From a virus (lineage: Duplodnaviria > Heunggongvirae > Uroviricota > Caudoviricetes): a stretch of 64,000 bases of DNA. The notes below the pieces were generated by a model. That model saw only the letters and a list, made by a program, of their open reading frames with translations, did not search any database and had not been told where the DNA came from. Below, piece by piece: positions 1,178 through 54,302 of the stretch (positions are counted from its first letter, which is position 1; every line of letters begins with the position of its first letter). The DNA is taken from IMG/VR virus record IMGVR_UViG_3300034357_000765; one strand, given 5' to 3'. The translations under genes and the position numbers were made by a program.

Positions 1178-1996
1178 ATGGAAAAAGATATATTCAAATT
1201 TGATGATTTTGTGACTGGTGGAAAACTAGACGATTTACAAAAGATGAAGTCCAATCTTGTAAAAGAAGGATTGTTCTCAGACCGAGAAGGATACAATGAT
1301 GAAGAAGATGACGATAGTGGTATATTCGCAGGTCATATTCAAAGACAAGATGGTGAAGATGATGAAGAGATAAACCAGGAATTCAATCCTTATAAAGTTC
1401 CTTCTTCAGAAATAGAAGATGAGGATGATGATGATTTTGGATTTGAATCTCCATTTTGCAAACCTTGTGAAGGTACAGGTTGTGAAGAATGTGATGGAAG
1501 TGGAATGAAAAGAAATCCGGTTGTAAACAATGATTATAAAGACCGAAGTATGCACAATCCATACTATGATGAAGATGATAACGAGGAACTTGAAGACTTA
1601 GATGAATCAAAATCCGAATCAGAAGAATACTACAAACTTTTCAAAGACAAAGCAGAAGATTTCGTATGCGACATCGCAGTTGAAGGTGTAAATCAAAACG
1701 ATACTGAAGTAAGACTTATTATTGAATCTGAAGATTGGACACTTATGTTTGTTGGTGAGATAAAGAAAGGTAAATGTATAATTCCTATCAAAAAACTTGG
1801 TATCTTCAACGAAGGACAAACAGGAAACATTAAGTTAGAAGTAAATGCAGACGGAAATCTATTCACACCATGGGAAGATAAGTTTGTTGTTAAAGTATCT
1901 AAAAAGGTAACTGTAAAACTAAACGAAAGTAAAAGTTCAAAACCTAAGGCTCCTGTCAAAAAAAGTCTTGGAGTTAAGGTAAACGTAAGAAAATAA
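1178..1996 (+). CDS. Acidic protein with DnaJ-type Zn-finger motif; candidate head-internal protein
   Basis: CKPCEGTGCEECDGSG (CxxCxGxG); D/E-rich; N-terminus IFKFDDFV resembles the recurring capsid-targeting-like motif. Confidence 0.7.
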   Translation: MEKDIFKFDDFVTGGKLDDLQKMKSNLVKEGLFSDREGYNDEEDDDSGIFAGHIQRQDGEDDEEINQEFNPYKVPSSEIEDEDDDDFGFESPFCKPCEGTGCEECDGSGMKRNPVVNNDYKDRSMHNPYYDEDDNEELEDLDESKSESEEYYKLFKDKAEDFVCDIAVEGVNQNDTEVRLIIESEDWTLMFVGEIKKGKCIIPIKKLGIFNEGQTGNIKLEVNADGNLFTPWEDKFVVKVSKKVTVKLNESKSSKPKAPVKKSLGVKVNVRK

Positions 1997-2029
1997 AAAA
2001 AAAGAGAGTCATTTGACTCTCTTTTTTTT
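1996..2029. terminator. Bidirectional intrinsic terminator
   Basis: A-run + GAGAGTCA-TT-TGACTCTC + T-run between convergent genes. Confidence 0.85.
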
Positions 2030-3365: not shown

Positions 3366-3378
3366 ACTTTTATTGTTT

Positions 3379-13851: not shown

Positions 13852-14343
13852 TTATAATTCTCTTTGTAATAAATCAAGCATAACTTCCAATATATGGTCA
13901 ATGTTGCTAAGACTACCACCGAAACCGTAACCATCGTCGTGTGACTCATACTCAAATACAGGTCTACCATCTAGTTTCAATACACCAGAGGTCGTACCTT
14001 CACCATATTCGTTACGTTTAGTTGAATAATCATCAGTGAACCTTCTTTCCAATTCATCATACATCTTATCAGCATAATCCTCTTCTTTTCCGGTATCACC
14101 TAACACTTCTTCTTCGTTACGTATAAAAAGAATACTATCTCTCAATATATCACAACACTTTCTTACAAGTGAATCTCCAGATCCATAGTCATGTAATCCA
14201 TCAACATAACTCTCTAACACGTTTTCCAATTCATCAGGAGTTGTTTCTTCATTCACTAAAAAAACATCTTCTTCATCGTCGTAGAATTTTTTCCACGATG
14301 TCTCTTCGTTTTCGAAAAGTCTGAAATTTTTAATATACTTCAT
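13852..14343 (-). CDS. Acidic candidate head-internal protein
   Basis: N-terminus MKYIKNFRLFENEE (capsid-targeting-like motif). Confidence 0.7.
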   Translation of the reverse strand: MKYIKNFRLFENEETSWKKFYDDEEDVFLVNEETTPDELENVLESYVDGLHDYGSGDSLVRKCCDILRDSILFIRNEEEVLGDTGKEEDYADKMYDELERRFTDDYSTKRNEYGEGTTSGVLKLDGRPVFEYESHDDGYGFGGSLSNIDHILEVMLDLLQREL

Positions 14344-14358: not shown

Positions 14359-14973
14359 TTATATATTATTTTTTAACCATCCTATCTTATCTTCTTTAAT
14401 CATTAAACAGTTGGCATTTGTGAAATATTCGAATCCTAAATTCCTCTTAACAAACATATCTCTATATGATGATATTGTAGTATGAGACATTATTTCAAAA
14501 AGCTCAGAAACTGGTGATTTGAATCCTGTATCATATTGTTTAAGTAAGAAAAGTGAATCTGAAAATTCCTGTTTTGTCTTTGCTAATAGTGCCAAATCAG
14601 GAGTACAACTGAATACTATATTCGCACCATCAAATGGTATAACGATATAAGTATTAGTATCTGATGCAAATGCTTCAGCACCTTCTTTTGTAGTAGAACC
14701 AATAAGACTTTTATATCTTGGAACGGTATAGTCTTTTCTATCATCAAAAAAGTCTTTATAGTTGTATGTTCCGATTGTTCCTCTTCTAGCTTCTTCGAAG
14801 AACAAACCAAAGTCTCCAAAGTTGTTTGAGTTTCTCCAAAGCATGTCGTTATCAAACGAGAAGTTTTTACAGTTCTCTCTGAAAACTTCTAAAAACTCTT
14901 GTTCACCGAGTCCTCTTGTTCTAGTTTTAGACTCTCTATCAATAAACTCTTGAAATTCTAATATAAGCCTCAT
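14359..14973 (-). CDS. Candidate head-internal protein, possible ADP-ribosyltransferase fold
   Basis: N-terminus MRLILEFQEF; LWR...IGSTTKEGAEAF...YIVIP resembles the R / S-T-S ART pattern. Confidence 0.5.
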   Translation of the reverse strand: MRLILEFQEFIDRESKTRTRGLGEQEFLEVFRENCKNFSFDNDMLWRNSNNFGDFGLFFEEARRGTIGTYNYKDFFDDRKDYTVPRYKSLIGSTTKEGAEAFASDTNTYIVIPFDGANIVFSCTPDLALLAKTKQEFSDSLFLLKQYDTGFKSPVSELFEIMSHTTISSYRDMFVKRNLGFEYFTNANCLMIKEDKIGWLKNNI

Positions 14974-14977
14974 ATCA

Positions 14978-15604
14978 TTATAATTTTTTTGAAATAGAGT
15001 ATTGTAGTTCTATTTCTTTTTTACTACCAACACCTGTTCCCCAATCTGGAAGTATATACAATAGTTCTGCCATTTTTTTATAATCTACCAATATTCCTTT
15101 GGTTTCATCTTCGGTATGTTTTAATATGTTTACGTGATCACACTCAGGAAACACATACAAAGGAAGATCACTACTCAATGCCAATATAACAGAATGCTTT
15201 AAGGGAACTTTATCGTCTTTTCCTCCGTGTAGAACAAATCCATCTATTCCTTCCAACTCGTCTCCTATCAAAGGAACTGTCGCCCATTGTCTTTTCCAAG
15301 CAGAAGCCACCATACAAACAGACTTTGGAGTTTTTGCTCCTTTATATATGGCTTGCATCAATATGGCACCACCTCTTGAATATCCTACTATCTCACCAAT
15401 ATCTTCTTCATCAAGATAAGATATTGCCTTTTCTTCATCTTCGTCGGTTATATTCATACCATCAGAAAACTTTGGACATCCTGTGTCCTGAGAAGAATCT
15501 TTCCATTCTATTTCACAAGATGGAAGTCTCATTTTCTGTGGAGTCATCAAGAATCCGTGGAATGCTACCTTATCAAAATTTTCAAATTTCTTCAAATGCT
15601 TCAT
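14978..15604 (-). CDS. Alpha/beta hydrolase with capsid-targeting-like N-terminus
   Basis: GYSRGG nucleophile elbow, LHGGKDDKVP, CDHVNI; starts MKHLKKFENF. Confidence 0.8.
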   Translation of the reverse strand: MKHLKKFENFDKVAFHGFLMTPQKMRLPSCEIEWKDSSQDTGCPKFSDGMNITDEDEEKAISYLDEEDIGEIVGYSRGGAILMQAIYKGAKTPKSVCMVASAWKRQWATVPLIGDELEGIDGFVLHGGKDDKVPLKHSVILALSSDLPLYVFPECDHVNILKHTEDETKGILVDYKKMAELLYILPDWGTGVGSKKEIELQYSISKKL

Positions 15605-22505: not shown

Positions 22506-24269
22506 ATGTATTATAAAAATAAAAAAACATGTATGAGAGTTAATAATTTTTCAAATTACACAAAAATGTACGAATCCAGACTTCAGGAATGCGACTTTTT
22601 TAGAGAGCAGAATATTACAGCAGACGATATCATCACTCCTTTAGAGGATTTAGTAAATGAAGAATTTCTAGATTATTTCATGAACGAAAATTGGGCTAGT
22701 GATTTATGGGCAGGAACTAAAAAGGTTGCTGGACAAGTATGGGACGGAACTAAAAAAGTTTTTAATACGGTTAAAGATGCAATAGCTGCCTTTTTCGGTA
22801 AGATTGTAGACTTCTTTAAAAACTTTTCTTTATCAAAACTGATTAGTGGTATTTGGGAGAAAATCAAATCGATTGGTTCTGCAATGTGGAACAAAATCAA
22901 AGAAGCACTTGGATCACTTAAAGAGTTCATCGTTGGAAACGATATGGTGGATGAAAACAACAAGCCAAAATTTGGAAATATCTGGTCTACTTTATGTCAA
23001 AAAGGAAAAGATTTGGTAGGTTGGGAAAAAGAAGGAGTTACTCCTGAACAGCTTGCACAAGCAGGAGAAAAAATAAAAATAAACGAATCTGATGCACACT
23101 CTATTGGTGATGATGAAGTTAAGTATTATGGAATGTTTGAAAAAATAGCACATGCTTTGGGTGTCAAAAACGCTAGATTCAATGGTGTTGTTTCTCAGAT
23201 TATGAAAAAGGGTACTTATGGTCTTATAATCATGGGTATATTAAAATTTGCTGGTCTTAGTTTAGGTGCATTAACATTAGGAATGAGTCCTATAGCAATG
23301 GCTGCTATTGGTGGTATGTTGTTGATGGCTGGGTTGATTATATTAGCAATCTGGGTTTGTAAACCTTATCCTACCGTAGATGATTGTTTGGCATATCTTC
23401 ATATCGCGTTTGGTGGTAACTGTGCAGTTGTTAATGTTCCTAACATTTTTGTACAAAATATTAACTATTACTATATCAACAATACTACTATAACAAATAC
23501 AAGTATCGCAAATACAAGTATTAGTAACACTAGCAACACGAACAACACAAGTTTAAGCAATACAAACGTGAACAACACGAATGTGAACAACACAAACGTG
23601 AACAACACAAGTGCGAACAACACAAACGTGAACAACACGAATGTGAACAACACAAACGTGAACAACACAAGCTCGACGAGTTATAGTAACTCTAGTATGA
23701 GAGTTTCTAAATCTGAGTTGAGAGTTGGTCAAGAGTATATCTATACTAGTAAAAAAGGTCAAAAAATAGTTAAGGTAGTTTCATTGACTAACGATGTTCT
23801 ATCTGGAAAAGATAAAAAATGGCTTACAGGTGATGACCAAAGTAGAGAAAAACTTAAAGACGGATATGTAGACGTTATCTATCAAGATAAAGACGGTGAA
23901 TACACAACTACAACTAACTTTGTTCCGATTCTTATATCAAAACTTACACCTTTAAATGCAGATTTACAAGTTGGTCAAGAATACATCTATAAAAACAGAG
24001 AAGGAAAAGAAAGAGTAGTTAAGGTAGTTTCTTTAACACATGATACTTTATCTGGAAAAGACAAAAAATGGCTTACAGGTGATGACAAAAAAAGAGAAGA
24101 ACTGAAAGACGAATATGTTGACGTTATTTATCAAGATAAAAACGGTGAATACACAACTTCAACTAACTTCCAACCAATTCTTAAATCTAGACTTACACCA
24201 TTAAAAGAGAAAAGCTATAAAGAAAGCTTAAGATATATTTCTTCTTTTGAAAAATATAATAACAAATAA
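22506..24269 (+). CDS. Membrane-associated protein with Asn/Thr-rich repeat and two C-terminal ~82-aa repeats
   Basis: Hydrophobic segments GLIIMGILKFAGLSLG and IGGMLLMAGLIILAIWV; NNTNV repeats; duplicated VGQEYIY...KLTPL units. Possible start at 22533. Confidence 0.8.
   Translation: MYYKNKKTCMRVNNFSNYTKMYESRLQECDFFREQNITADDIITPLEDLVNEEFLDYFMNENWASDLWAGTKKVAGQVWDGTKKVFNTVKDAIAAFFGKIVDFFKNFSLSKLISGIWEKIKSIGSAMWNKIKEALGSLKEFIVGNDMVDENNKPKFGNIWSTLCQKGKDLVGWEKEGVTPEQLAQAGEKIKINESDAHSIGDDEVKYYGMFEKIAHALGVKNARFNGVVSQIMKKGTYGLIIMGILKFAGLSLGALTLGMSPIAMAAIGGMLLMAGLIILAIWVCKPYPTVDDCLAYLHIAFGGNCAVVNVPNIFVQNINYYYINNTTITNTSIANTSISNTSNTNNTSLSNTNVNNTNVNNTNVNNTSANNTNVNNTNVNNTNVNNTSSTSYSNSSMRVSKSELRVGQEYIYTSKKGQKIVKVVSLTNDVLSGKDKKWLTGDDQSREKLKDGYVDVIYQDKDGEYTTTTNFVPILISKLTPLNADLQVGQEYIYKNREGKERVVKVVSLTHDTLSGKDKKWLTGDDKKREELKDEYVDVIYQDKNGEYTTSTNFQPILKSRLTPLKEKSYKESLRYISSFEKYNNK
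23562..23671 (+). repeat. Intragenic 15-nt tandem repeat with 60-nt higher-order period (NNTNV)
   Basis: Repeated aacaacacaaacgtg / aacaacacgaatgtg units. Confidence 0.9.
23718..24203 (+). repeat. Intragenic domain duplication (about 246-nt period)
   Basis: gttggtcaaga at 23724 and 23970; near-identical SGKDKKWLTGDD and YVDVIYQDK segments. Confidence 0.9.
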
Positions 24270-24278: not shown

Positions 24279-24965
24279 ATGAGTAGAATAGAAAATTTCA
24301 AAAACTTCGCTAATGAAGGACTAGCTTCGACTGGTTCTAAAATGAGAAGAATCGTTACTGGGCAATCTGCTGGGGACGAAATACAAAAGCTGTCTATTGA
24401 ACAGCAAAACCGACTGCTTGATTTGTATCGTAAAGATCCAACGGAGGCTGCAAAATATTTGAGAAGTATAATCATCAAAGAGAAAAACTCTCAGTTTGGA
24501 TTGGGATTAGCCTTAGTATTGGCTGGTGCCGGAATGATATACAAAGCTAATCATGTTGATCCGCCACCAAAACCAGGACCAGATGGTCATTGGGAAGATG
24601 GAGGAACCGGTTACACATACATTCTTAACGACAAAACAGGATCTCATCTTACACCAGATTCTCCTCCAGAAGACGTTATAGAAGCTATTAAAAATTGGCC
24701 AGGTGCTAATGGCGACTTTCATAAAGGATTAGATTTTATGACAAGAGGAGTTTCGGGTGCAGCCCGCGACGAGGCCATAAATGTTTTTAATAATCTATAT
24801 TCAAATCCTCATGAATATGGTGATACACTAGGTGAAATATTTCAAGGAAGTATGTCAGGAACTGGTAAAACCGCTGGTGACTTATTGGATTTTGCACCTG
24901 GAACAAAAGTTTGGATTCCTGATGCACCCACTCCATTTATAGTACCGCCACCTGGTGTAAAGTAA
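24279..24965 (+). CDS. Candidate head-internal protein with one transmembrane segment
   Basis: MSRIENFKNFANE; FGLGLALVLAGAGMIYK. Confidence 0.7.
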   Translation: MSRIENFKNFANEGLASTGSKMRRIVTGQSAGDEIQKLSIEQQNRLLDLYRKDPTEAAKYLRSIIIKEKNSQFGLGLALVLAGAGMIYKANHVDPPPKPGPDGHWEDGGTGYTYILNDKTGSHLTPDSPPEDVIEAIKNWPGANGDFHKGLDFMTRGVSGAARDEAINVFNNLYSNPHEYGDTLGEIFQGSMSGTGKTAGDLLDFAPGTKVWIPDAPTPFIVPPPGVK

Positions 24966-25095: not shown

Positions 25096-25716
25096 ATGAA
25101 AAACATACTAGTACTTCTTGCCGTAATATTCTCATCTTACATACTATTTTTTGATGATTCTTTACCTTCTAAAGAAAATGTTGAAAACAATGAAAATAAT
25201 GAAATCGTATCCGATAATTCTGATGTAAAAGTCTATATAAGAGGATTGGACAATTTCAATAAAGAAGATTTGAATATTGTAAAGACTATCATCGAAAATA
25301 AATATGGTGTCATATGTAAAATCGAATCTCCTATAACTACATCTTATCAAAACGATGATAATAAAGATTGTGATCTTCTCCAAAATGAATTTGGACTGAC
25401 AAGATCATTCGTATATGATGAAAGTGAGTCAATAACTATTTATGTCACAAATTCTAAAATAAGTACAAATGGAAATATTAAAACAGGTCTTTGTTATGGT
25501 AATAGTATCTATATACCACATCCTATTGATTCACCATCATTTTTAGAAAAATCTTACATCGAAATGATTGCGATACATGAGCTTTCACATTCTTTCGGTA
25601 TGGATCACTGCGATGAATATAAATGTATTATGAATGGATATTTCGATGAAAAGGGAAATCTACCATTCTGTGAAAAACATATGGAAGAAGCTTTAGCTGC
25701 AGGATTCAGACCTTAA
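25096..25716 (+). CDS. Membrane-anchored/secreted zinc metalloprotease (archaemetzincin-like)
   Basis: HELSHSFGMDHC..CIMN (HExxHxxGxxH + Met-turn); N-terminal hydrophobic signal. Confidence 0.8.
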   Translation: MKNILVLLAVIFSSYILFFDDSLPSKENVENNENNEIVSDNSDVKVYIRGLDNFNKEDLNIVKTIIENKYGVICKIESPITTSYQNDDNKDCDLLQNEFGLTRSFVYDESESITIYVTNSKISTNGNIKTGLCYGNSIYIPHPIDSPSFLEKSYIEMIAIHELSHSFGMDHCDEYKCIMNGYFDEKGNLPFCEKHMEEALAAGFRP

Positions 25717-26384
25717 GCTTTGTTTTGATACTTTATTGCGGTATAGTCAAAGTCTGGTAAAACTTCTTTTACCACTTTACTTGCCGCTTTTATGTATTTT
25801 TGATTGTCGTCGTAGAAAACAACCTTTTTGAATCCTGTCTTTTCGATAAGCTCGACTATCTTATTTCCTTTCCAAGTACCTGCTCTATAATGATTTAAGT
25901 GAGGATACATATGAACTCCGTATTTTGGATAGTTTAATCCAAGTTCTCCAAGTGACCTTTCAACCTTTTCTCTCATTTGAATCGGCCTCGCGGTTACTAT
26001 ACATTTGTTTTGTACAGAGTTGTAGAATGATTTTAGATCTGTAGTCATTGTAGGAAGAGACATGTCACTTAAACCAAATTCGTCTGGTTGAAGAAGATAA
26101 ACTCTAGCACCTTTTCTTACCCAGTTTTTGTCATTATTCTGTACCGATATTTTGGCATTTGGGTCCTCGACGTATATTCTACCATCCTGCCATTTTAAAT
26201 CTGATAGAGATATTCCTATTGTTTTTATAGACATGTTGAGTAACGATTCAATCGTCACGTTTTCTTTCAAAAAGTCTATAGCCAGCTCCTCAAAGTCTGG
26301 TGTCACCACTAAAGTATCGTCATAGTCAAACACGTAAAGAGTGTCTTCGTTAGAAAAACTTTCAAATTTTTTAATCCTCGTCAT
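25713..26384 (-). CDS. HAD-superfamily phosphatase with capsid-targeting-like N-terminus
   Basis: VFDYDDTL (DxD), IVTAR, K, FYDD motifs; starts MTRIKKFESFSNE. Confidence 0.8.
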   Translation of the reverse strand: MTRIKKFESFSNEDTLYVFDYDDTLVVTPDFEELAIDFLKENVTIESLLNMSIKTIGISLSDLKWQDGRIYVEDPNAKISVQNNDKNWVRKGARVYLLQPDEFGLSDMSLPTMTTDLKSFYNSVQNKCIVTARPIQMREKVERSLGELGLNYPKYGVHMYPHLNHYRAGTWKGNKIVELIEKTGFKKVVFYDDNQKYIKAASKVVKEVLPDFDYTAIKYQNKA

Positions 26385-29068: not shown

Positions 29069-30352
29069 ATGAGATTATTAAACTATTTTGACTTTATTCT
29101 TGAAGAAAGATCTGAATTGAAGGGTCAGATGAGATATTCGGCTGAAATGAAAAGCAAACTCAACAAGATTGGTGGTAAAGTCGCAGAAGCACTTCTTGAT
29201 CTTGAGATGACTGAGCAAGAGTTTACATATATTGATTTAGGAGAAAAAGACAATACAATCACATTTATTGAAGTAGATAAAGTATTTGACTTCCTAAAAT
29301 CGAAAACGGCTATGCCACCTGGTTATCTAAATAGGTTCATAAGAATAACATGGCTTAGTAAAGAAGATGCTCGTCACGTCGAATTAAAGATTGGTAAGTT
29401 TACTAAATCACTTTTATTGGATACTTTTACCGATCCAGAATATGGTGAGTTTGTTGATAAATGGAGAGCACTGAAAGATATCTCAACATTCGAGCTTTGG
29501 AAAGGACAAGACATAATGGATGCATATAGCTCGGAAAACTATGAAGATTGTAGTGGATCTCATTTAGACAACTCATGTATGAATGATAGTGAATATGTTC
29601 TTTTCTATTCCGCTATAGAAGAATGTGAAGTTTTAGTTCTTTTAGATGAAGATAGGTCTTATGGTCCTACTATAAAAGGAAGAGCATTAGTTTGGACAGA
29701 TTATAAAGGAAGAAGAATAATGGATAGAGTTTACTATAACTTCAGTAAGGACTATCAAAAGTTTTTAAACTGGGCAAAAGAAAATAATGTTTATTACAAA
29801 AAGACTCAAAGTACATTCATATTAGGTGATAAAGAAGAAAGGATTGAAACAAAAATAAAAGTTCCTAATGTATTCACATATAGAGGCGATGGATTTCCTT
29901 ATATGGATACTTTCTGCTATGCACAAGACGAATGGGTAATGAACTACGAACCAGATGGTAGATACTACAAACTTCAGGATACCGATGGCGAATATGAAGA
30001 ATTCAACTCTTTGGTGGATATATATGGTGAAGAGATTGAAGATATCTCTGACTATGTATTTTCTGAATATCAAAATGGATATATCTGGAAGTCAGATGCA
30101 GTTCATCTTAAATATGATGGTGGCTCCGGTTTTGAAAGCTATTCTTTTGAAAGCTGGTTGGAAAGTGAATTTGTTGAGACAGGAATACCTCAATACGGGA
30201 AAAGAGTAAGTTTCGTAGAGATTGATGGAAAATGGTATTTTCAAAAACATTGTGTCTATTCCGAGAAAGAAGGACAATGGATCTGGAGACCAGAGGCAAT
30301 CTATAATAATGGAGACTGGGCTTCTAATGAAAATTTCAATCCAGGAAAATAA
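29069..30352 (+). CDS. Conserved phage hypothetical protein with capsid-targeting-like N-terminus
   Basis: MRLLNYFDFILEE; NSCMN, GRALVW, MDRVY, FPYMDTF motifs. Confidence 0.7.
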   Translation: MRLLNYFDFILEERSELKGQMRYSAEMKSKLNKIGGKVAEALLDLEMTEQEFTYIDLGEKDNTITFIEVDKVFDFLKSKTAMPPGYLNRFIRITWLSKEDARHVELKIGKFTKSLLLDTFTDPEYGEFVDKWRALKDISTFELWKGQDIMDAYSSENYEDCSGSHLDNSCMNDSEYVLFYSAIEECEVLVLLDEDRSYGPTIKGRALVWTDYKGRRIMDRVYYNFSKDYQKFLNWAKENNVYYKKTQSTFILGDKEERIETKIKVPNVFTYRGDGFPYMDTFCYAQDEWVMNYEPDGRYYKLQDTDGEYEEFNSLVDIYGEEIEDISDYVFSEYQNGYIWKSDAVHLKYDGGSGFESYSFESWLESEFVETGIPQYGKRVSFVEIDGKWYFQKHCVYSEKEGQWIWRPEAIYNNGDWASNENFNPGK

Positions 30353-30364: not shown

Positions 30365-31276
30365 ATGGCAACGATTAAAAGATTCAATCAATATTTCTCT
30401 AACGAACTTATGACTAATTTCGTGGTAGATTCACTATTAACAGTATCTGAAGGAAGAGACTCAAATGCGAACGCAAAAATAGAAGAGTATAAAAACGAGT
30501 TTAGAAAAATAAAAGACGATTTAGGACTAAACTCTAGACTTATTCCTACATTTGGATTTGGTATTGGTGGTTTTTATCCTATAGTCGAAAGTATAATGAG
30601 ACTTGAGGGATTTGAGATATCTAGAAGAAGTGTTGTTCTTCTTACTTTAGCCGCCATATCTATAATAATAATCGGAGATGGTAAGAAAAAAGACAAAAAA
30701 AGTGAGGCAGATGTTGAAAGAGACTTGGTTGTTGATGATATAAATGTTAAAGTTCTTCAAGAACTTAATCAAACGGTTTCTCCAAACTCCTCTACTGGTC
30801 AATCTCCTATCTTAAAAAAAGTAGTTTCTATAATAAAGTCATTCCACGAATCATTTTGGAAAAAAATATTCAAAGGTGAACTTAAAAATACTCTTACAGG
30901 GCTTAGATCTAAAGTAAAGATGACATGGGACTCTGTAAAGACTGGCTTTAATCAAGCCGCGGGTGGTCTTATCGATATGCTTGCTTATACTGCAATGCTT
31001 ATTCCTGTTATGAATGTTTTAGACAACGCGATAAACAACTTTCCTGACCTTTTCAAAACTGCTCAGATTCTTCCAGAGAACCTATTGGCATTTGCCGGTG
31101 GTATTGGTGTAGTTGTTGCTAAGCATGGAATAGCAAAGCTTATTTCAAGATTTGGTGACACAGAAGACGAACAAGAGATAATGGATGAGATTGAAACGCC
31201 TATAATACAAAAAATCGCTAACTACAAAGACTTTGATTCTGAGGCACAACCACCTCTTATAAAGGAAGAGCCTTGA
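30365..31276 (+). CDS. Candidate head-internal protein with hydrophobic segments
   Basis: MATIKRFNQYFSNE; VVLLTLAAISIIII; LLAFAGGIGVVVA. Confidence 0.7.
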   Translation: MATIKRFNQYFSNELMTNFVVDSLLTVSEGRDSNANAKIEEYKNEFRKIKDDLGLNSRLIPTFGFGIGGFYPIVESIMRLEGFEISRRSVVLLTLAAISIIIIGDGKKKDKKSEADVERDLVVDDINVKVLQELNQTVSPNSSTGQSPILKKVVSIIKSFHESFWKKIFKGELKNTLTGLRSKVKMTWDSVKTGFNQAAGGLIDMLAYTAMLIPVMNVLDNAINNFPDLFKTAQILPENLLAFAGGIGVVVAKHGIAKLISRFGDTEDEQEIMDEIETPIIQKIANYKDFDSEAQPPLIKEEP

Positions 31277-46708: not shown

Positions 46709-46739
46709 AAAAAACCCGTTCTTTTGAACGGGTTTTTTT
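46707..46739. terminator. Bidirectional intrinsic terminator
   Basis: A-run + CCCGTTC-TTTT-GAACGGG + T-run. Confidence 0.85.
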
Positions 46740-47421
46740 ATTTATCTATATTTTCGAACCACCAGTTGAAATAAACAAAGTTGTCTCCTACTAAGTTATA
46801 AGTCTCACTTTCGTGTCGTACTACGATTCTATTATCATATGCTCTTACAACCTCTATTTCAATACCTTTTTTCATTTCTAACTGTCTTCCTGTTTCTATT
46901 GAGAAACAGATTACTTCATCATTTATCAATTTGTATTTTCCTGGTTCTGGTTTCATCCAAGCTTTTATAGTCTTTATGACCAAACCTTTTATTTTTATTA
47001 TCCATTCTTTTGCTTGATATAGGTCATAATCTTTAAACACTTCTGATTCAAGTTCTGGATCTGAGGTAAGTATTCCATTTATGACTCCCCAATATTCGTT
47101 GTCTCCAATAACAAATGTTACATACACATCGTAGTTTATACCATTTACCTTTGTTATTCTGAGTATTTTCATACTCTTTATGTCTTGATTCTCTAATGCA
47201 AGCTTACCTCTAAGATTTTTGTATGCATTAGAACCAGTTAGATTCCAAAGTATATCATTTACTCTTGACATTGCTTGTCTTATCGCATCCTGGTGTTTAT
47301 CAAATGCATTTGTTGATAGAGAAGGATCATCAACATGCATAGATGCTTGTACCGAATCTGGGTTCAACCTTTGCATATTAAACTCTGTGAATTCTAGAAT
47401 TAGTTTATTTCTCTTTTTCAT
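46738..47421 (-). CDS. Candidate head-internal protein
   Basis: N-terminal KLILEFTEFN motif. Confidence 0.7.
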   Translation of the reverse strand: MKKRNKLILEFTEFNMQRLNPDSVQASMHVDDPSLSTNAFDKHQDAIRQAMSRVNDILWNLTGSNAYKNLRGKLALENQDIKSMKILRITKVNGINYDVYVTFVIGDNEYWGVINGILTSDPELESEVFKDYDLYQAKEWIIKIKGLVIKTIKAWMKPEPGKYKLINDEVICFSIETGRQLEMKKGIEIEVVRAYDNRIVVRHESETYNLVGDNFVYFNWWFENIDK

Positions 47422-47454: not shown

Positions 47455-47775
47455 ATGAAAAGAATCAAAAGATTTAACGAAAGTGAACAAGTTGACGTAT
47501 CGACAGAAAGAGTTGATGAGATATTAGTCGATTTGAAAGAACTTACATCTACTTTAGATGATAAGAAAAAGATGATAGATTCTTTGATTAGCGAGTTAAA
47601 CAACTATAAAAACAAATCCGACAAAGGAAACGATCAAATAGACGATTCAATCGCGGCCCTTCAGGTTATAATGAAAGATTTAGAAAACTCTACAGACAAA
47701 ACAGACACCGTTATTGGAAACCTTCAGAGTTACAACGACGATGGTAGAAAATATCTTTATACTGAAAACAAATAA
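47455..47775 (+). CDS. Small coiled-coil candidate head-internal protein
   Basis: MKRIKRFNESE; heptad pattern. Confidence 0.7.
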   Translation: MKRIKRFNESEQVDVSTERVDEILVDLKELTSTLDDKKKMIDSLISELNNYKNKSDKGNDQIDDSIAALQVIMKDLENSTDKTDTVIGNLQSYNDDGRKYLYTENK

Positions 47776-49026: not shown

Positions 49027-49047
49027 CTGTTTTTTGATTAGTTTTTA

Positions 49048-50154
49048 TTATATATTATTTTTCTTTTCTGCAAAATCGTAAAGCTTCCCAAGCTTTGTCT
49101 TTAGTTTTGTACCAGCTTTGTTTATTCTCTTACCCATATACTTTATGAAGTAGTTGCAATCATTTTTCTTTAGTCTTTCAAAGTCAATGCTTGGTCCTTC
49201 CTTTTCATATTCGAATTGCTTTTGATACTCTTTAAGCCACATTTCTTTAAGCCTTTCTTTTAATGGAAGAGCCAATACTCCTGAGTAAAGCCCTGTTCTT
49301 TCAGGTCCTTTTGTCGAAATATATTCGTCGATTGTAGAGTCGAGCATTTCTATGAAATCTTCAGCGCTGAATCTTGTCATCAAAATTGCGTTCTTCCAAG
49401 CCTCTGTTTCGAAAAGTCGTTCGAATCCGTGTTTCATTACGGTATAAGCGGCTTCTTGAACTTGTGCGTTTATCTCATAAGGCTCTGATAGATAGAAATT
49501 ATAGACTAAATCATTAGACCATATAGAATAAACATCATTTGGTATCTTCCATCTATTTACGTCTGCATAAGTTATAGCAAGCTTTGGACTTCTTTTGTAT
49601 ATAGGTAGTCCCTTTTGATTTACAAGTCTACCATAATACTCATATAGATGATTCAGTTCGTGATATATTGTTTCCATAAGAGTATCTTCAAGTTTTTCGT
49701 CTTGTTCAATCTTATAGCTTTTAGGTATGTAAACTTCGATTCCAATAAGCAGGTTTATACCAAATGGAAGGTCTTTAATCTCGGTCTTTACTTTCTTTGA
49801 ATATCCTGACCAGTTCTTATGTCCAAACCTATAAGCACTTCCACCAACCGAATGTGACTTTCCTGAATTAAACTCATCTTCAAATATATCATCTTCTATC
49901 TTTTTGAAATGTAAGTCTAATGTGATTCCTACTACTGGAAACTTTTTATACTCTTCTTCGGTTCCTATTGATGATTTCAAGTTTTCTGTAGAAATCTTAG
50001 GATCATTCAAATACTCTTTATAACTCGAATGTTCTGTAAGAAATGATTTTAACTCTTCTATAGTCTTTTTGTATATGGCATCCGCATACTCAATCGATGG
50101 TAAAGCCACTCCAAGTCTCTCTAATATGAAATTTTTGAAATTGTATATTTTCAT
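49048..50154 (-). CDS. Zincin-like metallopeptidase with capsid-targeting-like N-terminus
   Basis: IYHELNHLYE (HExxH) and downstream EPYEINA; starts MKIYNFKNFILE. Confidence 0.65.
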   Translation of the reverse strand: MKIYNFKNFILERLGVALPSIEYADAIYKKTIEELKSFLTEHSSYKEYLNDPKISTENLKSSIGTEEEYKKFPVVGITLDLHFKKIEDDIFEDEFNSGKSHSVGGSAYRFGHKNWSGYSKKVKTEIKDLPFGINLLIGIEVYIPKSYKIEQDEKLEDTLMETIYHELNHLYEYYGRLVNQKGLPIYKRSPKLAITYADVNRWKIPNDVYSIWSNDLVYNFYLSEPYEINAQVQEAAYTVMKHGFERLFETEAWKNAILMTRFSAEDFIEMLDSTIDEYISTKGPERTGLYSGVLALPLKERLKEMWLKEYQKQFEYEKEGPSIDFERLKKNDCNYFIKYMGKRINKAGTKLKTKLGKLYDFAEKKNNI

Positions 50155-50217: not shown

Positions 50218-50424
50218 ATGAAGTATATTAAAAAATACATCAAGTTTTTTGAAACTACAATGGTTGCACCAGAAGTTGCTAAGAAAACTTTGCTATCAGA
50301 TAACTTGACACTTAGTCACAAAGGAGAAGAAAGCACAGAATCAGAAGTAGTAGAAAGATTTTCCAAAATATACAGCGGATTGTCAGAAGATGAAAAGTCT
50401 GAAATCAATTCATACTTTAAATAA
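50218..50424 (+). CDS. Small candidate head-internal protein
   Basis: MKYIKKYIKFFE; TAATATATA upstream. Confidence 0.65.
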   Translation: MKYIKKYIKFFETTMVAPEVAKKTLLSDNLTLSHKGEESTESEVVERFSKIYSGLSEDEKSEINSYFK

Positions 50425-50436
50425 AAACAACGATAT

Positions 50437-52149
50437 ATGAAGAATTATTTACAATTTTTAAAAGAAGAAGTTGATCTTAAAGGTAATAAGGGAATTGATG
50501 ACGATTTCATGAAAAAGGCTGAGGATCAAGCTAAGCAAAATCTTGGAGTAACACCAAATACAAATGTTCCTGTTGCAGGAGACATAGGTTCTTTGATGAG
50601 AAGATCCGCACAACTTCTTACTAATGGTTTAAATACAGACCAAATAGAAGAAAGATACACTAAATTAGAACAACTTGCTAAAAGAGTTATAATGGATGAG
50701 TATGGTGATATTATTGAAGCTTCTGAAAAACCAGTTGAGCTTTTGATAAAACTTATCAGACCTAATCAATCGGTATTAGGAGAAGTTCCAAACCTATTGA
50801 ACGTTCCTGCAGAGTCAGATGAAAGACCAGAGTATTCTGAAGAAGAAACTGAAACAGATGTACCACAAAGTCAACCACAAAGTCAACCACAAGGTCAACA
50901 AGAAACTGAAGACGAAGAGGAAGAAGATGACTTCATGTCTTTTTTTGATGATGATACAGATTATGAGGATCAAGAAGAAGAAAATCCTGAAGAAGTAGAA
51001 GAGCTTACTAACAAAGATGTTGCAATGGCAATCGATAAGAAAAAGATTCTTAACATGCTTACTCAAGGTGAAGGTAAAGCAACTAAAGACATCATCAAAT
51101 TTTCAGAAGTAGTTGAAAGTGGTTTAAGAGAAATCTTAGGAGACTCTCACAGAGAACTTTTAGACGTTTGGGTAAAAACATCTGAAGTAGCACACAAATT
51201 AGATTGGGCTGTAACCGATAAAGCAAAAGGTAGTATGATGAAAAACATGCCTGGTGGTTTAGCTGGTGCAGTTGATTTGACTTGGGAAAACACTACAAGT
51301 AAATTTAACAAAATACACCTTTTAACAGAAAATACAGATTTCAATAAGATTGTAATAAGAGCTTATGGTATAGATTTTCCAATGCTTTTACATGAAGCTA
51401 TAAAAGGAATCTATTTACTTCTTCAATCAAGTGCTATCAAAAAAGATGATGAGATTGCCGAAGAGATTAAAAGAGCAACTTCTTCTTTCAAAGATGAATC
51501 ACAAGACTTTAAATATGGTGTAGTTGCACAAAATATGTTTAGAGATTTTATCAATGCCTGTAAAGACGCTGGTAAATATACACAAATGAGAGCTAGAGTA
51601 TTTGCACAACTTGCTGTTGATAAAGGAAGAGGAGGTAGATATACTGATGAAGAGTTTTTAGAAATAACAAAAAGTTTGTTTTCTGTATTTGATAGTAAAA
51701 CTGAAGCAGGTAAAACATCTTTTGTAATAAATCAAGAAAGATTTGCACAATCTAAAGCAAAATCTGAGATTGAAAAAGTAGTTGCTGATATAGTTAGAGC
51801 AGAAGACGAATATAGAGATGAACTCAACAAATGGGAAATGGAACAAAGATTTGGACACAATGCACCAGAACCACAAGGTGATGGTGAAGATTATCCAGAA
51901 CAAGGTGAAGAGTCTCAATCTGATATCGATAGATTGGTAAGACAATCTTTGGAAAAACCAGCTAAAGAAGACGATGAAAGCGACCTTAGTAAAAGAGAGA
52001 TACAAGAACTTATAGATGATGCATTAGATGCTGAAGACTATAAAGAAGTAGAAAGATTGGCAAAACTTCCAAACTATCTAAAAGAGGGTTTAGTATATCT
52101 TGCTGAGTTAAAAAGAATAAATGAATCAAAAATAACAAGAAGAAAATGA
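50437..52149 (+). CDS. Large acidic candidate head-internal protein
   Basis: MKNYLQFLKEE; IRAYGIDFPMLLHEAIKGIY segment. Confidence 0.75.
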   Translation: MKNYLQFLKEEVDLKGNKGIDDDFMKKAEDQAKQNLGVTPNTNVPVAGDIGSLMRRSAQLLTNGLNTDQIEERYTKLEQLAKRVIMDEYGDIIEASEKPVELLIKLIRPNQSVLGEVPNLLNVPAESDERPEYSEEETETDVPQSQPQSQPQGQQETEDEEEEDDFMSFFDDDTDYEDQEEENPEEVEELTNKDVAMAIDKKKILNMLTQGEGKATKDIIKFSEVVESGLREILGDSHRELLDVWVKTSEVAHKLDWAVTDKAKGSMMKNMPGGLAGAVDLTWENTTSKFNKIHLLTENTDFNKIVIRAYGIDFPMLLHEAIKGIYLLLQSSAIKKDDEIAEEIKRATSSFKDESQDFKYGVVAQNMFRDFINACKDAGKYTQMRARVFAQLAVDKGRGGRYTDEEFLEITKSLFSVFDSKTEAGKTSFVINQERFAQSKAKSEIEKVVADIVRAEDEYRDELNKWEMEQRFGHNAPEPQGDGEDYPEQGEESQSDIDRLVRQSLEKPAKEDDESDLSKREIQELIDDALDAEDYKEVERLAKLPNYLKEGLVYLAELKRINESKITRRK

Positions 52150-54302
52150 TATTTAAGAAATATAACCAATTTTTAGATCAGTTTTCAATAAACGAAAATC
52201 TAGACAAAGCCAAAAAGCTCATGAAGGATAGATATATCCTTACTACTGCTGCAAATCAATTGAACCTTATTGATGATGAGACAAAATATGATATGTCAAA
52301 TGGTAATAAACGTTCTGTAACTCCTTTAGACTTTATAAAATTAGACGCCGAGAAGAAAAAAGAGCTTGGTGATACTATGAGAACAATCACGGTGAGTGAA
52401 GAACAGCTTAGAGAACTCATATCTACTAACGAGTTTAAACAAGTAAGAGAGCTTAAGACCAAAATTCCTGTTCAGGATGTAAATGGTAATACGATTGAAA
52501 AAGAATATCAATTAGATAGAGACCACATGGGTTGGTTGGGAAATTTTGTTTATTTTTACTATTATGAAAATGCTAATCTTCAGGATTTAAAAACTTTATA
52601 CACAAATTTATTACTAAATAAAGATATATTGTCAAACCTTGATATATCAGTAAATGGTAAAATAACCAAAAAGGCATTCGATACTAACTACATAAACATG
52701 AAAGTTCCTAACAATATGGAGCTTTTGATTGATGGATTGAACAGGCTTGAGAATCTAAGATACTATAAGAAAATGGAGGCAGATCTTCCGCCACATTTGA
52801 AAAGAGACTTAAAGGATTCTCCACAGATAATCAAAGACCAATTTTTAGAAGTAGCTATGGCATTCGACGCTCTTGGTGGTGGTGATAAATCAAAACACGA
52901 TGAACTATACAAAGGATTCTGGGGAAGAATGTTATTGGATGATAGAGAAGGTTCAAAAACAAAAGGACAGGTAGTTTTTAGAAGCCCTGTTTCTAGATAT
53001 AAAAATATTAGAGATTTGATTGAAAAGGCATTAGCATATGCAAAAGCAACAGACAATGATGGATTCAACAGCTTCTACCAAAAGTTTCAAGATTGTACAA
53101 TGAAATTTGGTGCGATGGGTGGAGAAGAGATTTTCAACGAAAACGGCATATTCATCATATCAGTTAAGTCTTTTGGTGCAAATAGAATACTTAATGCACA
53201 TACTTCACATTGTATCAAAGACTCTTTGTCACAATGGGAGGGTTATGTGAACAAAGACAGACAGGGTAGACAGGTAGAAGAAAACATGCAATATTATGTT
53301 TATAACTTCAACTTGGCACAATCAAACTCTCTTTTTACTATAGGAATCACAATCGAGCCAGATGATAGACAAAATCACATTAGAGCAGCACACAACAAGA
53401 TAGATGGAAATGTTGCAGGAAACGTGATAAACATATTGAAGGATTGGGGTACAGAATACGATGTGGAAAGTAATGCTAAAGAAAAGGCTAAACAACTTGG
53501 TGCTACAGATGCTGAGGTTTCAAAATACGGTGCACTTTTCGCTCTTTTAAGACCAGTTACTTCTGAAGATCTTGAAAAAAGAAGAAAATCAAGAGCCGCA
53601 AATATTGAGATTGTTAAAAAAGGAATAACCATGGAACAGATTAAGCAATATGTTACTGTAGATGGTGCCGATATCAATAGAGAAGCTTGTAAAGTTCTTC
53701 AACATGCTGTTCAGGAAAATGATTTAGAGAAAGCTAAATTGATATTATCTCTTGGTGGTTCACCAAATCTAAAACCACCAAAAGAAGGTGTTATCAACGA
53801 TGCAACTTCATTGGAAATGATTAAACTTTTAGTTGCAAATAATTCAGAACTTACTGCAACGGTATACAACAATATCTGTCATGATATAGATGCGGTTAAA
53901 TTCTGTTTGGATAATGGATTAGATCCTAGTTTTGAAGATTCACTTCCTGTAAGAAGATCTTGTAAGGGTAGTTATGTAAGTGCCTCAGATATTGGAGAGT
54001 GCTACTTAGATGGTATTAAAATGCTACTTGATTATGGTGCAAGTCTTACTGATAAAAGAGGTAGATATATGATTATAAAATGGGCTATTGAATATGGTAG
54101 AACAGAAGTTATTGATTATGTTATTGAAAATGGAGGAACAATGGGATTCGCTTCAGCATACACTTGGTTAGGACATAGTAGAAAACTAGCTATAGAAGAT
54201 AGAAAAAAACTATATTTAGAATATCTTAAGCCTCTAATTGAGAAATATGAACAAACCGAATTTGACGAGCTTCCACCAAACAAGTTATGGCATTTAAAAT
54301 AA
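52146..54302 (+). CDS. Large protein with C-terminal ankyrin-like repeats
   Basis: LQHAVQENDLEKAKLILSLGG, IKLLVANN, VKFCLDNG, IKMLLDYGA, IKWAIEYGRTEVIDYVIENG. Confidence 0.7.
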   Translation: MIFKKYNQFLDQFSINENLDKAKKLMKDRYILTTAANQLNLIDDETKYDMSNGNKRSVTPLDFIKLDAEKKKELGDTMRTITVSEEQLRELISTNEFKQVRELKTKIPVQDVNGNTIEKEYQLDRDHMGWLGNFVYFYYYENANLQDLKTLYTNLLLNKDILSNLDISVNGKITKKAFDTNYINMKVPNNMELLIDGLNRLENLRYYKKMEADLPPHLKRDLKDSPQIIKDQFLEVAMAFDALGGGDKSKHDELYKGFWGRMLLDDREGSKTKGQVVFRSPVSRYKNIRDLIEKALAYAKATDNDGFNSFYQKFQDCTMKFGAMGGEEIFNENGIFIISVKSFGANRILNAHTSHCIKDSLSQWEGYVNKDRQGRQVEENMQYYVYNFNLAQSNSLFTIGITIEPDDRQNHIRAAHNKIDGNVAGNVINILKDWGTEYDVESNAKEKAKQLGATDAEVSKYGALFALLRPVTSEDLEKRRKSRAANIEIVKKGITMEQIKQYVTVDGADINREACKVLQHAVQENDLEKAKLILSLGGSPNLKPPKEGVINDATSLEMIKLLVANNSELTATVYNNICHDIDAVKFCLDNGLDPSFEDSLPVRRSCKGSYVSASDIGECYLDGIKMLLDYGASLTDKRGRYMIIKWAIEYGRTEVIDYVIENGGTMGFASAYTWLGHSRKLAIEDRKKLYLEYLKPLIEKYEQTEFDELPPNKLWHLK

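What the first reader, a model, noticed from the sequence alone, without database searches (positions are those of the whole stretch)
1178..54302. About 17 unrelated proteins share a T4 capsid-targeting-like N-terminal tag: a large injected-cargo set
Seen: N-termini of the form M-(K/R)-x-(I/L)-x-x-(F/Y)-x-x-F-x(0-3)-E. Examples: MKYIKNFRLFENE (14343), MRLILEFQEF (14973), MKHLKKFENF (15604 and 28994), MSRIENFKNFANE (24279), MTRIKKFESFSNE (26384), MHILDYDEFN (26556), MRLLNYFDFILE (29069), MATIKRFNQYFSNE (30365), KLILEFTEFN (47421), MKRIKRFNESE (47455), MKIYNFKNFILE (50154), MKYIKKYIKFFE (50218), MKNYLQFLKEE (50437), MIFKKYNQFL..INE (52146), with weaker versions at 1178 and 22533. Many follow a TAATATATA-type motif. 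Established: T4 IPII/IPIII use the 10-aa CTS MKTYQEFIAE for packaging and are cleaved by gp21 after Glu. Inference: this phage packages and injects a large enzymatic arsenal (hydrolase, HAD phosphatase, metallopeptidase, ART-like, ankyrin) using a portable tag.
Basis: partly seen in the sequence, partly recalled or inferred. Interest (0 to 1): 0.75.

Follow-up and report, generated by a model that had tools for sequence, protein, structure and literature searches.

The report
Capsid-loading tag on huge-phage proteins
About one in five genes in this piece of a huge, uncultured phage starts with the same short peptide; the peptide copies a repeat in the head scaffold of related phages and ends in a head-protease cutting motif, so it most likely loads many unrelated proteins into the virus head, as in phage T4 but on a far larger scale.

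Summary
Fourteen of the 17 listed N-termini hold up as one tag, and three are weak (1178, 22533, 26556). The tag has two interchangeable forms: M-K-[YH]-[LI]-K-x-[FY]-x-E, and M-x-[IL]-K-K-Y-x-x-F-[IL]-x-E. It is about 45-fold over composition-matched shuffles and is absent from internal Met sites.

In the nearest public relative (LR745206.1, 635 kb), about 135 of 899 ORFs carry the tag, and their bodies fall into 129 unrelated families.

- Codon usage at tag positions is ordinary, so selection acts on the peptide.
- Tagged genes sit in units driven by the phage box A[AT]TATATA and almost never behind host-type promoters.
- Two AlphaFold models leave the tag unstructured outside a confident fold.

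The link to the head comes from relatives. They have T4-type portal, capsid and gp21-type protease genes. The protease is fused to 10-12 tandem YSEY[IL]AE|NLDKNI units, close to the T4 tag core YQEFIAE. The capsid propeptide ends EYAEFHSINE|NA. One small capsid-arm paralogue carries the tag in place of that propeptide.

Packaging, cleavage and injection are inferred, not shown. The ART-like claim found no support, and the metallopeptidase claim rests only on an HExxH motif.

This scan found the same tag, and its link to the scaffold repeat, earlier on other megaphage DNA. I found no paper that describes it.

The parts
13852..14343 (-). Tagged gene, 163 aa, starts MKYIKNFRLFENE (form 1). No known domain.
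   Evidence: matrix score 7.3. Phage box upstream.
14359..14973 (-). Tagged gene, 204 aa, starts MRLILEFQEFIDRE (form 2-like).
   Evidence: Lies downstream of 14978-15604 in the same unit.
14978..15604 (-). Tagged gene, 208 aa, starts MKHLKKFENFD (form 1). Weak esterase/lipase-like match.
   Evidence: score 14.7; phrog_789, E 3e-4. Phage box upstream.
24279..24965 (+). Tagged gene, 228 aa, starts MSRIENFKNFANE.
   Evidence: Follows 22533-24269 in one unit.
25713..26384 (-). Tagged HAD-superfamily phosphatase, 223 aa. The tag MTRIKKFESFSNE lies directly before the first strand and the DxDDT motif.
   Evidence: All 120 listed homologues keep a tag dialect before the motif. AlphaFold mean pLDDT 86.7 with residues 1-11 under 50. 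Weak but uniform HAD fold matches.
28401..28994 (-). Tagged gene, 197 aa, starts MKHLKKFENFE (form 1).
   Evidence: score 14.7; phrog_24078, unknown function. Phage box upstream.
29069..30352 (+). Tagged gene, 427 aa, starts MRLLNYFDFILE (form 2). Belongs to a paralogous family in which some members are tagged and some are not.
30365..31276 (+). Tagged gene, 303 aa, starts MATIKRFNQYFSNE.
   Evidence: Its homologue in the relative has a tag at a second Met. Phage box upstream.
46738..47421 (-). Tagged gene, 227 aa. The tag KLILEFTEFN follows five extra residues (MKKRN). This layout is conserved in the relative.
   Evidence: Phage box upstream.
47455..47775 (+). Tagged gene, 106 aa, starts MKRIKRFNESE (form 1). 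Helical body.
   Evidence: (score 7.6), (its homologue in the relative is tagged too).
49048..50154 (-). Tagged gene, 368 aa, starts MKIYNFKNFILE (form 2). Invariant HExxH motif. Fold unknown.
   Evidence: Forty homologues keep M-x-I-x-x-F-x-x-F-I-N-E, with F9 and E12 invariant. Its homologue in the relative carries form 1. AlphaFold mean pLDDT 85.5 with residues 1-7 under 50. No fold match.
50218..50424 (+). Tagged gene, 68 aa, starts MKYIKKYIKFFE (form 1).
   Evidence: score 6.0. Phage box upstream.
50437..52149 (+). Tagged gene, 570 aa, starts MKNYLQFLKEE (compare T4 MKTYQEFIAE).
   Evidence: its homologue in the relative starts MKNFKDFMNEE.
52146..54302 (+). Tagged gene, 718 aa, starts MIFKKYNQFLDQFSINE|NLDK. 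Weak ankyrin repeats near the C-terminus.
   Evidence: The INE|NLDK junction matches the capsid propeptide end and the scaffold unit in relatives.
22533..24269 (+). Weak tag (MRVNNFSNYTKMYE|S, read from the second ATG). The body has a domain also found in tape-measure and endolysin proteins (aa 62-143).
   Evidence: The box-to-ATG spacing favours the start at 22533.
1178..1996 (+). Weak tag (MEKDIFKFDDF, no Glu). Doubtful member.
26371..26556 (-). Weak tag (MHILDYDEFN), 61 aa. Doubtful member.

Best explanation
The shared N-terminus is a T4-type capsid-targeting propeptide, used here on a very large scale.

Proposed mechanism:
1. The 10-17 residue tag is a flexible, probably amphipathic N-terminal piece. 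It imitates one unit of the 14-residue repeat YSEY[IL]AE|NLDKNI that builds the scaffold part of the phage's protease-scaffold protein, and it imitates the end of the capsid protein's own propeptide.
2. Late in infection the tagged proteins are made together with the structural proteins.
3. The tag docks them into the scaffold core of the prohead.
4. The gp21-type serine protease then cuts after the Glu that closes the tag (hydrophobic-x-E, followed by Ser, Ala, Asn or Gly), at the same time as it shreds the scaffold and trims the capsid protein.
5. The mature proteins stay in the head with the DNA and probably enter the host with it.

Shown here: the tag, its enrichment, its portability, selection at peptide level, its link to the phage promoter box, its likeness to the scaffold repeat and the capsid propeptide, and the T4-type head genes in relatives.

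Inferred: binding to the scaffold, cleavage, presence in virions, and injection.
For: **The tag is real and specific.**
- Window: 9 of 68 starts match, against 0.2 expected.
- Relative LR745206.1: 117 form-1 tags plus 18 form-2 tags among 899 ORFs. The looser regex matches 51 of 899 starts against 11 of 3609 internal Met sites.
- A matrix trained on the relative picks out window N-termini and no internal Met site.

**It is portable.**
- The 135 tagged proteins fall into 129 BLAST families.
- Homologous pairs swap form 1 for form 2, and tagged and untagged paralogues coexist.

**Selection is on the peptide.**
- Synonymous codons at tag positions follow genome usage.
- 64 of 135 tagged genes are operon-internal, and 131 untagged genes have the same promoter box.

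**Timing fits.**
- Phage box: 64 of 135 tagged against 131 of 764 untagged (p 5e-13).
- Host-type box: 4 of 135 against 101 of 764.
- Window tail-fibre genes carry the same phage box.

**A cleavage-type end.**
- 88% of tagged proteins have hydrophobic-x-E with the Glu at residue 8-20, against 35% of untagged.
- The next residue is Ser, Ala or Gly in 50%.

**Head machinery in relatives.**
- T4 portal family, 195 bits, and Gp23 capsid family, 89 bits.
- The protease domain aligns to T4 gp21 by hhalign at 93.9% probability, E 1.6e-7, with conserved GE.DHP and VSSRxxG motifs.

**Mimicry.**
- The protease is fused to 10-12 tandem YSEY[IL]AE|NLDKNI units in six phages.
- A pattern taken from that unit hits 21 of 898 N-termini against 2.2 expected (p 4e-14), and 3 of 68 in the window against 0.19.
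- The capsid propeptide ends in the conserved EYAEFHSINE|NA in eight phages.
- The 84-aa protein at 93266-93520 of LR745206.1 reads MRYLKPYKKFIE|NA and then a copy of the capsid N-arm (58% identity), so the tag sits in place of the propeptide.

**The T4 precedent, checked on the T4 sequence.**
- ipII and ipIII start MKTYQEFIAE|A.
- gp23 reads FGSFLTE|A at residue 65, and gp22 starts MLKEQLIAE|A.
- The function of the CTS and the L/I-x-E rule are taken from PMC9026906 and PMC5694885.

**The tag lies outside the fold.** In two AlphaFold models it is the only low-confidence N-terminal piece.

**Ortholog families keep the tag.** 120 and 40 homologues do so.

**Spread.** A DNA pattern for the tag hits at least 118 IMG/VR loci, against 4 for its reversed control. 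Tag-rich contigs in which a head module could be found all have a Gp23-type capsid gene.
Against: - No virion proteomics, N-terminal sequencing or cultured relative exists, so packaging, cleavage and injection are untested.
- The window's own head genes are outside the window and its genome is not held. The protease, scaffold and capsid evidence therefore comes from relatives, about 68% nucleotide identity for the nearest.
- Roughly 15% of all ORFs would be cargo. That is far beyond any studied phage and needs a very roomy head.
- Several strong window tags lack a clean hydrophobic-x-E: 14978 ends FENFD, 28401 ends NFE, and 24279, 25713 and 30365 end [SA]-N-E.
- In the HExxH family, F9, E12 and G15 are invariant. 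That could also mean the segment has a role in the mature protein.
- Two tag-rich contigs that CheckV rates 91% and 94% complete lack a full capsid gene, although one of them overlaps a longer contig that has one.
- Gene starts were called by the first ATG, so counts carry a few false positives (for example a tRNA synthetase) and some misses.
Confidence: 0.65

Rival explanations
1. The tag is a prohead-protease propeptide that brings proteins into the assembling head, but most tagged proteins are not injected effectors. They serve assembly itself (core or scaffold accessories, DNA-condensing or pressure-buffering internal proteins), or they are destroyed or expelled during maturation.
For: All the head-linked evidence fits this equally well. 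Several tagged genes lie beside the head genes and are small and very acidic, like T4 core proteins. Most cargo has no recognisable enzyme domain.
Against: The tagged set includes enzymes with no obvious role in assembly: a HAD phosphatase, Rnl1-type RNA ligase, 2H/Acb1-like phosphoesterase, GH108 lysozyme, nucleotide cyclase, DHH and RNase T-like domains. These resemble host-takeover or counter-defence functions, as do T4 IPI and Alt. The bodies are very diverse and turn over fast, which is typical of arms-race cargo.
Confidence: 0.18
2. The tag is a peptide signal unrelated to the capsid. It could be a degron or recognition site for a cytoplasmic protease or chaperone, a membrane-binding or compartment-targeting amphipathic helix, or a site for N-terminal modification.
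For: The tag is short, basic and aromatic, probably amphipathic, and disordered in models. About 135 client proteins is more typical of a sorting or quality-control signal than of known virion cargo sets.
Against: This reading does not explain several observations:
- the same heptad is repeated 10-12 times in the protease-scaffold protein;
- the same motif ends the capsid propeptide;
- the tag replaces that propeptide in a capsid-arm paralogue;
- the tag closes with Glu plus a small residue.
The tag has no hydrophobic stretch for secretion.
Confidence: 0.1
3. The conservation is at RNA or DNA level: an A/T-rich start region that helps leaderless or Shine-Dalgarno-less translation, or promoter clearance, downstream of the phage box.
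For: The tag residues (K, Y, L, I, F, N) all have A/T-rich codons.
Against: Synonymous codons vary as in the rest of the genome: K is AAA 61 and AAG 23 against 62 and 22 expected; L uses TTA, CTA, CTT and TTG; Y uses TAC more than expected. Leu/Ile and Phe/Tyr swaps keep chemistry, not bases. 64 of 135 tagged genes are operon-internal, and 131 untagged genes share the box and its spacing. Shuffling the same N-terminal residues destroys the signal.
Confidence: 0.03
4. The tag is chance, low-GC composition bias, or one diverged paralogous family whose N-terminus is its best-kept part.
Against: Shuffle and internal-Met controls reject chance. A matrix trained on another genome transfers to the window. 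The bodies fall into 129 families out of 135 and include unrelated known folds. The reversed DNA pattern gives 4 loci against at least 118.
Confidence: 0.01

Closest known systems
Capsid targeting sequence (CTS) of phage T4 internal proteins IPI, IPII, IPIII and Alt, removed by prohead protease gp21 (Mullaney and Black 1996; reviewed in PMC9026906 and PMC5694885)
   Same: Both are a 10-19 residue N-terminal propeptide on otherwise unrelated proteins, ending in hydrophobic-x-Glu. Form 2 here (Y-x-x-F-[IL]-x-E) matches the T4 core Y-Q-E-F-I-A-E position for position. The phage lineage has T4-type portal, capsid and gp21-type protease genes.
   Different: The scale differs: about 14 genes in 64 kb, and about 135 per genome in the relative, against a handful in T4. 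A second dialect (MK[YH]LKx[FY]xE) dominates here. The tag visibly copies a tandem repeat of the scaffold. Nothing has been shown experimentally here.
T4 gp21 protease with the gp22 scaffold and the gp23 propeptide
   Same: The protease fold family and its catalytic motifs are shared. In both, the scaffold and the capsid protein are cut after Glu. The T4 gp23 site FGSFLTE|A and the gp22 start MLKEQLIAE|A show the same pattern as the T4 CTS.
   Different: In the relatives of this phage, protease and scaffold are one gene. The scaffold there is a regular array of 14-residue units that each carry the site.
Propeptides of ejection and inner-body proteins of giant phages phiKZ, 201phi2-1 and SPN3US (S/A-x-E sites; PMC5694885, PMC9026906)
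   Same: Many head-internal proteins, about 50 head proteins in all, are processed after Glu by a gp21 homologue, and their propeptides are thought to target them to the prohead. Several window tags end in [SA]-N-E.
   Different: Those propeptides are mostly more than 100 residues long and not a common short tag. These phages are a different lineage with no repeat-built scaffold.
Cargo-loading peptides of encapsulins, and scaffold-mediated cargo loading in HK97-fold shells
   Same: A short, portable, disordered terminal peptide directs diverse cargo into an HK97-fold protein shell.
   Different: Encapsulin peptides are usually C-terminal, bind the shell directly and are not cleaved. They are not homologous to this tag.

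Membership tests
T4-type capsid targeting sequence system | A short (10-19 residue) N-terminal extension shared by otherwise unrelated proteins | tested here: met
   14 window genes carry it. In the relative, 135 tagged proteins fall into 129 body families. In two models the tag lies outside the confident fold.
T4-type capsid targeting sequence system | The tag ends in a prohead-protease site: hydrophobic (L/I in T4)-x-Glu, with the cut after Glu | tested here: met
   The sequence motif is met: 88% of tagged against 35% of untagged proteins, with Ser, Ala or Gly next in 50%. Most window tags fit, but five do not: 14978 and 28401 lack a hydrophobic residue at P3, and 24279, 25713 and 30365 end [SA]-N-E. 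The cleavage itself was not tested and cannot be tested with these tools.
T4-type capsid targeting sequence system | The phage encodes a gp21-type (MEROPS S77) prohead protease and a T4-type head (gp20 portal, gp23 capsid) | tested here: met
   Met in relatives only. Portal_T4 scores 195 bits and Gp23 scores 89 bits. The protease profile against T4 gp21 gives 93.9% probability, although Pfam S77 alone is below its cut-off. The window's own head module lies outside the window and its genome is not held.
T4-type capsid targeting sequence system | Sequence likeness to the T4 CTS MKTYQEFIAE | tested here: met
   Form 2 and the scaffold unit share Y-x-x-[FY]-[IL]-x-E with T4. Form 1 matches only in outline: K2, an aromatic at residue 7, and a closing Glu.
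T4-type capsid targeting sequence system | The tag is sufficient to carry a protein into the prohead, and tagged proteins are present in virions in processed form | not testable with these tools
   No cultured phage and no proteome are available. The predicted-complex job gave no verdict.
T4-type capsid targeting sequence system | Cargo is ejected into the host with the DNA | not testable with these tools
   This is inferred only by analogy with T4 IPI and Alt (PMC3012670).

The most novel reading that the evidence does not exclude
Mahaphage-type huge phages load more than 100 different proteins, about 15% of their coding repertoire and including enzymes against host defences, into the head. 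They do so by giving each protein one copy of the scaffold's own 14-residue repeat as an address label. The fused protease then cuts the label off together with the scaffold. That would be by far the largest virion-delivered proteome known in phages. It would also give a simple, general rule (tag = one scaffold unit) for how capsid targeting works, T4 included.
Probability: 0.4. Interest if true: 0.8.

Novelty: new variant of a known kind. Interest (0 to 1): 0.6.

Why it matters
If the tag really loads cargo, three things follow.

First, it marks from sequence alone the set of proteins a huge phage carries into the cell before any gene is expressed. That turns hundreds of 'hypothetical' megaphage genes into candidates for first-minute takeover and counter-defence functions.

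Second, it helps explain what very large heads and genomes are used for.

Third, the likeness between tag, scaffold repeat and capsid propeptide suggests a testable mechanism for capsid targeting. That mechanism is still unresolved even in T4. It could also be used to load chosen proteins into phage heads.

The idea is an extension of a known T4 principle, and this scan has met it repeatedly in related megaphages. It is therefore not a new kind of system. I found no paper describing it for huge phages.

Tried and rejected
- **Own genome.** It is not held. An exact 50-mer is absent from viral contigs and metagenome contigs, so all head-gene evidence had to come from relatives.
- **Predicted complex.** A job pairing a window tag (first 40 aa of 52146-54302) with the scaffold repeat region of a relative gave no verdict. 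It counts neither way.
- **rpS21 idea.** The 'basic/aromatic N-terminal extensions' of phage rpS21 reported in PMC7162821 might have been this tag. They are not: rpS21 in five tag-rich phages is 64-72 aa with no extension.
- **Cargo functions.** Pfam and PHROGs are mostly blank. The ESM Atlas returns only viral hypotheticals. Foldseek against PDB and AFDB finds no fold for the HExxH protein. I found no ART-like protein.
- **Pfam S77 alone.** It was below its cut-off, and a PDB sequence search of the protease-scaffold found nothing. Only the profile comparison with T4 gp21 settled the protease assignment.
- **Cultured relatives with proteomes.** The nearest cultured phages with a homologous protease are Rak2/121Q-type jumbo phages at about 25% identity. 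They have separate gp21, gp22 and gp23-like genes and a different N-terminal dialect (MSKLEKLLKE|S, MSQLLNE|S), so they cannot serve as direct evidence.
- **Capsid gene as a strict companion of the tag.** Two tag-rich contigs lack a full capsid gene. They are probably fragments, so this test is only consistent, not decisive.
- **T4 gp23 cleavage position.** I could not find the position (after residue 65) stated in the papers I opened. It rests on my own knowledge.


Full report
**What the window is.** The 64-kb window has 33% G+C and no tRNA genes. Its nearest public relatives are two uncultured huge phages, LR745206.1 (634,780 bp) and LR756502.1 (642 kb), at about 68% nucleotide identity over a fibre module. 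Thirty-nine of the 68 ORFs I called have homologues in LR745206.1, largely in the same order. Genomes of this size were placed in the Bacteroidetes-infecting 'Mahaphage' clade (PMC7162821). That paper's text does not name the accession, so the assignment is my inference. The window's own genome is not held and could not be found by exact match.

**The observation.** The strict regex fits four ORFs. A looser form fits 9 of 68 starts, against 1 of 416 internal Met sites and 0.2 expected after shuffling the N-terminal residues. The core [ILVY]xx[FY]xx[FY] fits 14 of 68 starts against 2 of 416 internal sites.

To avoid judging a motif on the data that suggested it, I fetched the whole of LR745206.1 and called 899 ORFs. 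I then let a two-component mixture model find any N-terminal motif. It converged on M-K-[YH]-[LI]-[KR]-x-[FY]-[ENK]-x-[F] in 117 ORFs. A second form, M-x-[IL]-K-K-Y-x-x-F-[IL]-x-E, occurs in 18 more.

The matrix trained there picks out the window's tags and no internal Met site. Fourteen window genes are convincing and three (1178, 22533, 26556) are weak.

**Ruling out the dull explanations.**
- The 135 tagged proteins of the relative fall into 129 BLAST families, so this is not one paralogous family.
- Homologous pairs between the window and the relative keep a tag but may switch form. For example, 49048-50154 has form 2 and its homologue has form 1. Tagged and untagged paralogues coexist.
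- Synonymous codons at tag positions follow genome-wide usage.
- Half of the tagged genes are operon-internal, and 131 untagged genes have the same promoter box at the same spacing. The signal is therefore in the peptide, not in the RNA or the promoter.
- In two deep ortholog families the tag is kept in every member, in lineage-specific dialects. Among 120 listed homologues of the HAD phosphatase, the tag sits immediately before the first strand and the DxDDT motif. Among 40 homologues of the HExxH protein, F9 and E12 are invariant.
- AlphaFold models of both proteins are confident (mean pLDDT 86.7 and 85.5), except for the tag residues 1-11 and 1-7.

**Expression class.** In the relative, the phage-specific box A[AT]TATATA precedes 47% of tagged and 17% of untagged genes (p 5e-13). 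The host-type TAnnTTTG box precedes 3% of tagged and 13% of untagged genes. In the window, all 14 tagged genes lie in units headed by the phage box, none lies behind a host-type box, and the tail-fibre genes use the same phage box.

**Link to the head.** The relatives have a T4-type portal (195 bits) and a Gp23-type capsid protein (89 bits). Immediately upstream of the capsid gene is a 707-aa ORF. Its N-terminal domain aligns to T4 gp21 with 93.9% probability and keeps the GE.DHP and VSSRxxG motifs.

In six phages this protease is fused to 10-12 tandem 14-residue units, YSEY[IL]AE|NLDKNI, followed by an acidic region. The unit core is nearly the T4 tag core YQEFIAE. I verified on the T4 genome that ipII and ipIII start MKTYQEFIAE. 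A pattern taken only from the scaffold unit is found at 21 of 898 N-termini against 2.2 expected (p 4e-14), and at 3 of 68 in the window against 0.19 expected.

The capsid propeptide ends in a strictly conserved EYAEFHSINE|NA in eight phages. That is the same [FY]xx[FY]..[IL]NE ending seen in window tags such as FSINE|NLDK (52146) and FSNE (25713, 30365).

Most tellingly, the 84-aa protein at 93266-93520 of LR745206.1 reads MRYLKPYKKFIE|NA followed by a copy of the capsid N-arm (58% identity). A tag stands exactly where the capsid protein has its propeptide.

Tagged proteins have hydrophobic-x-E with the Glu at residue 8-20 in 88% of cases, against 35% of untagged proteins. A small residue follows in half of them. 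This matches the published L/I-x-E rule for gp21 and the S/A-x-E rule for phiKZ (PMC9026906).

T4 itself shows the same logic. Its gp23 has FGSFLTE|A ending at residue 65, and gp22 starts MLKEQLIAE|A. That gp23 is cut after residue 65 is from my own knowledge.

**Cargo.**
- Window: only the HAD phosphatase is secure. The esterase and ankyrin matches are weak. 22533-24269 has a domain shared with tape-measure and endolysin proteins. 49048-50154 has an invariant HExxH motif but no fold match. I found nothing ART-like.
- Relative: the 45 largest tagged proteins include Rnl1-type RNA ligase, 2H/Acb1-like phosphoesterase, GH108 lysozyme, a nucleotide cyclase, DHH and RNase T-like domains. An NFACT-R protein with a form-2-like start (MIKKYKLFKE) lies beside the capsid gene; it was not among the ORFs classed as tagged.
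- These functions would suit proteins that act at the moment of entry, but that is inference.

**Spread.** A degenerate DNA pattern for the tag hits at least 118 IMG/VR loci, against 4 for its reversed control. Tag-rich contigs carry 13-54 copies of a looser pattern, against 0-7 for the control. The one contig of the 19 with no excess over the control (4 against 2; complete at 253 kb) has no Gp23 gene. Wherever a head module was present in a tag-rich contig, it was Gp23-type.

**Verdict.** The reading as a T4-like capsid-targeting, protease-removed tag is the best-supported explanation (about 0.65). Packaging, cleavage and injection remain unproven, and part of the cargo list is unsupported.

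The tag and its likeness to the scaffold repeat were already noted by this scan on other megaphage genomes and in another window of this genome. I re-derived the scaffold-repeat link here before I read the notes that describe it. I found no publication describing it. I class it as a new variant of a known kind.

Noticed in passing
window 17149-17499 (+) and 8004-9275 (+): Two untagged-looking genes start MKTYQEV... and MKTYPELVD... They match the first four to six residues of the T4 tag MKTYQEFIAE. However, 17149 lies in a unit headed by a host-type promoter box and lacks the aromatic at residue 7 and the [IL]-x-E end. It is unclear whether these are decayed tags or chance.
   Followed up: partly
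LR745206.1 291407-291880, 93266-93520, 554784-555284 (loci L021, L011, L034): This is a small family of proteins that copy the N-terminal arm of the major capsid protein. One has the complete capsid propeptide, one has the tag instead, and one has a different leader ending ENLILE|TS. They may be decoys or minor head or core components.
   Followed up: partly
window 48227-48460 (+); LR745206.1 255082-255243: A roughly 77-aa ORF resembles only the C-terminal 50 residues of Gp23-type capsid proteins (19 bits in LR745206.1; 33 bits, above the Pfam cut-off, in two IMG/VR contigs). It recurs in several huge phages. Function unknown.
   Followed up: no
proteins P0015, P0031, P0033, P0044, P0049 (homologues of window 25713-26384): In some relatives the HAD phosphatase is fused behind another tagged protein. 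An internal tag remnant (...KVKSLFESFENSDT) is kept at the junction. This suggests gene fusion at the tag, or a polyprotein that the protease could split.
   Followed up: no
LR745206.1 198546-200669, residue 210: A tag-like site, YSNYLVNE|LA, lies just after the protease domain and before the scaffold part, where self-release of the protease would be expected. It is conserved as YS[KQ]YLV[NK]E in four relatives.
   Followed up: partly
window 11455, 12469, 15665, 16613, 25096, 55942, 63572 (upstream regions): Host-type Bacteroidota promoter boxes (TAnnTTTG) precede a separate set of genes, none of them tagged. This looks like an early class, distinct from the units with the phage box.
   Followed up: partly
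window 7792-56217 and elsewhere in this genome: Other first-stage notes report a second, C-terminal tag (R-x-x-K-[IL]-x-x-[IL]-[LFY]) on small proteins of this genome (e1-5441019, e1-5441033). T4 Alt is processed at both ends (PMC9026906), so a C-terminal head-targeting signal is worth testing against the same scaffold idea.
   Followed up: no
Escherichia phage 121Q, KM507819.1 332550-336820 (locus L186): In this cultured jumbo phage the scaffold, capsid protein, protease and two neighbouring proteins all start with a short M-x-x-L-L-x-E|S type leader (MSKLEKLLKE|S, MSQLLNE|S, MLKDIFE|S). This may be a different dialect of the same principle, in a phage where it could be tested.
   Followed up: no
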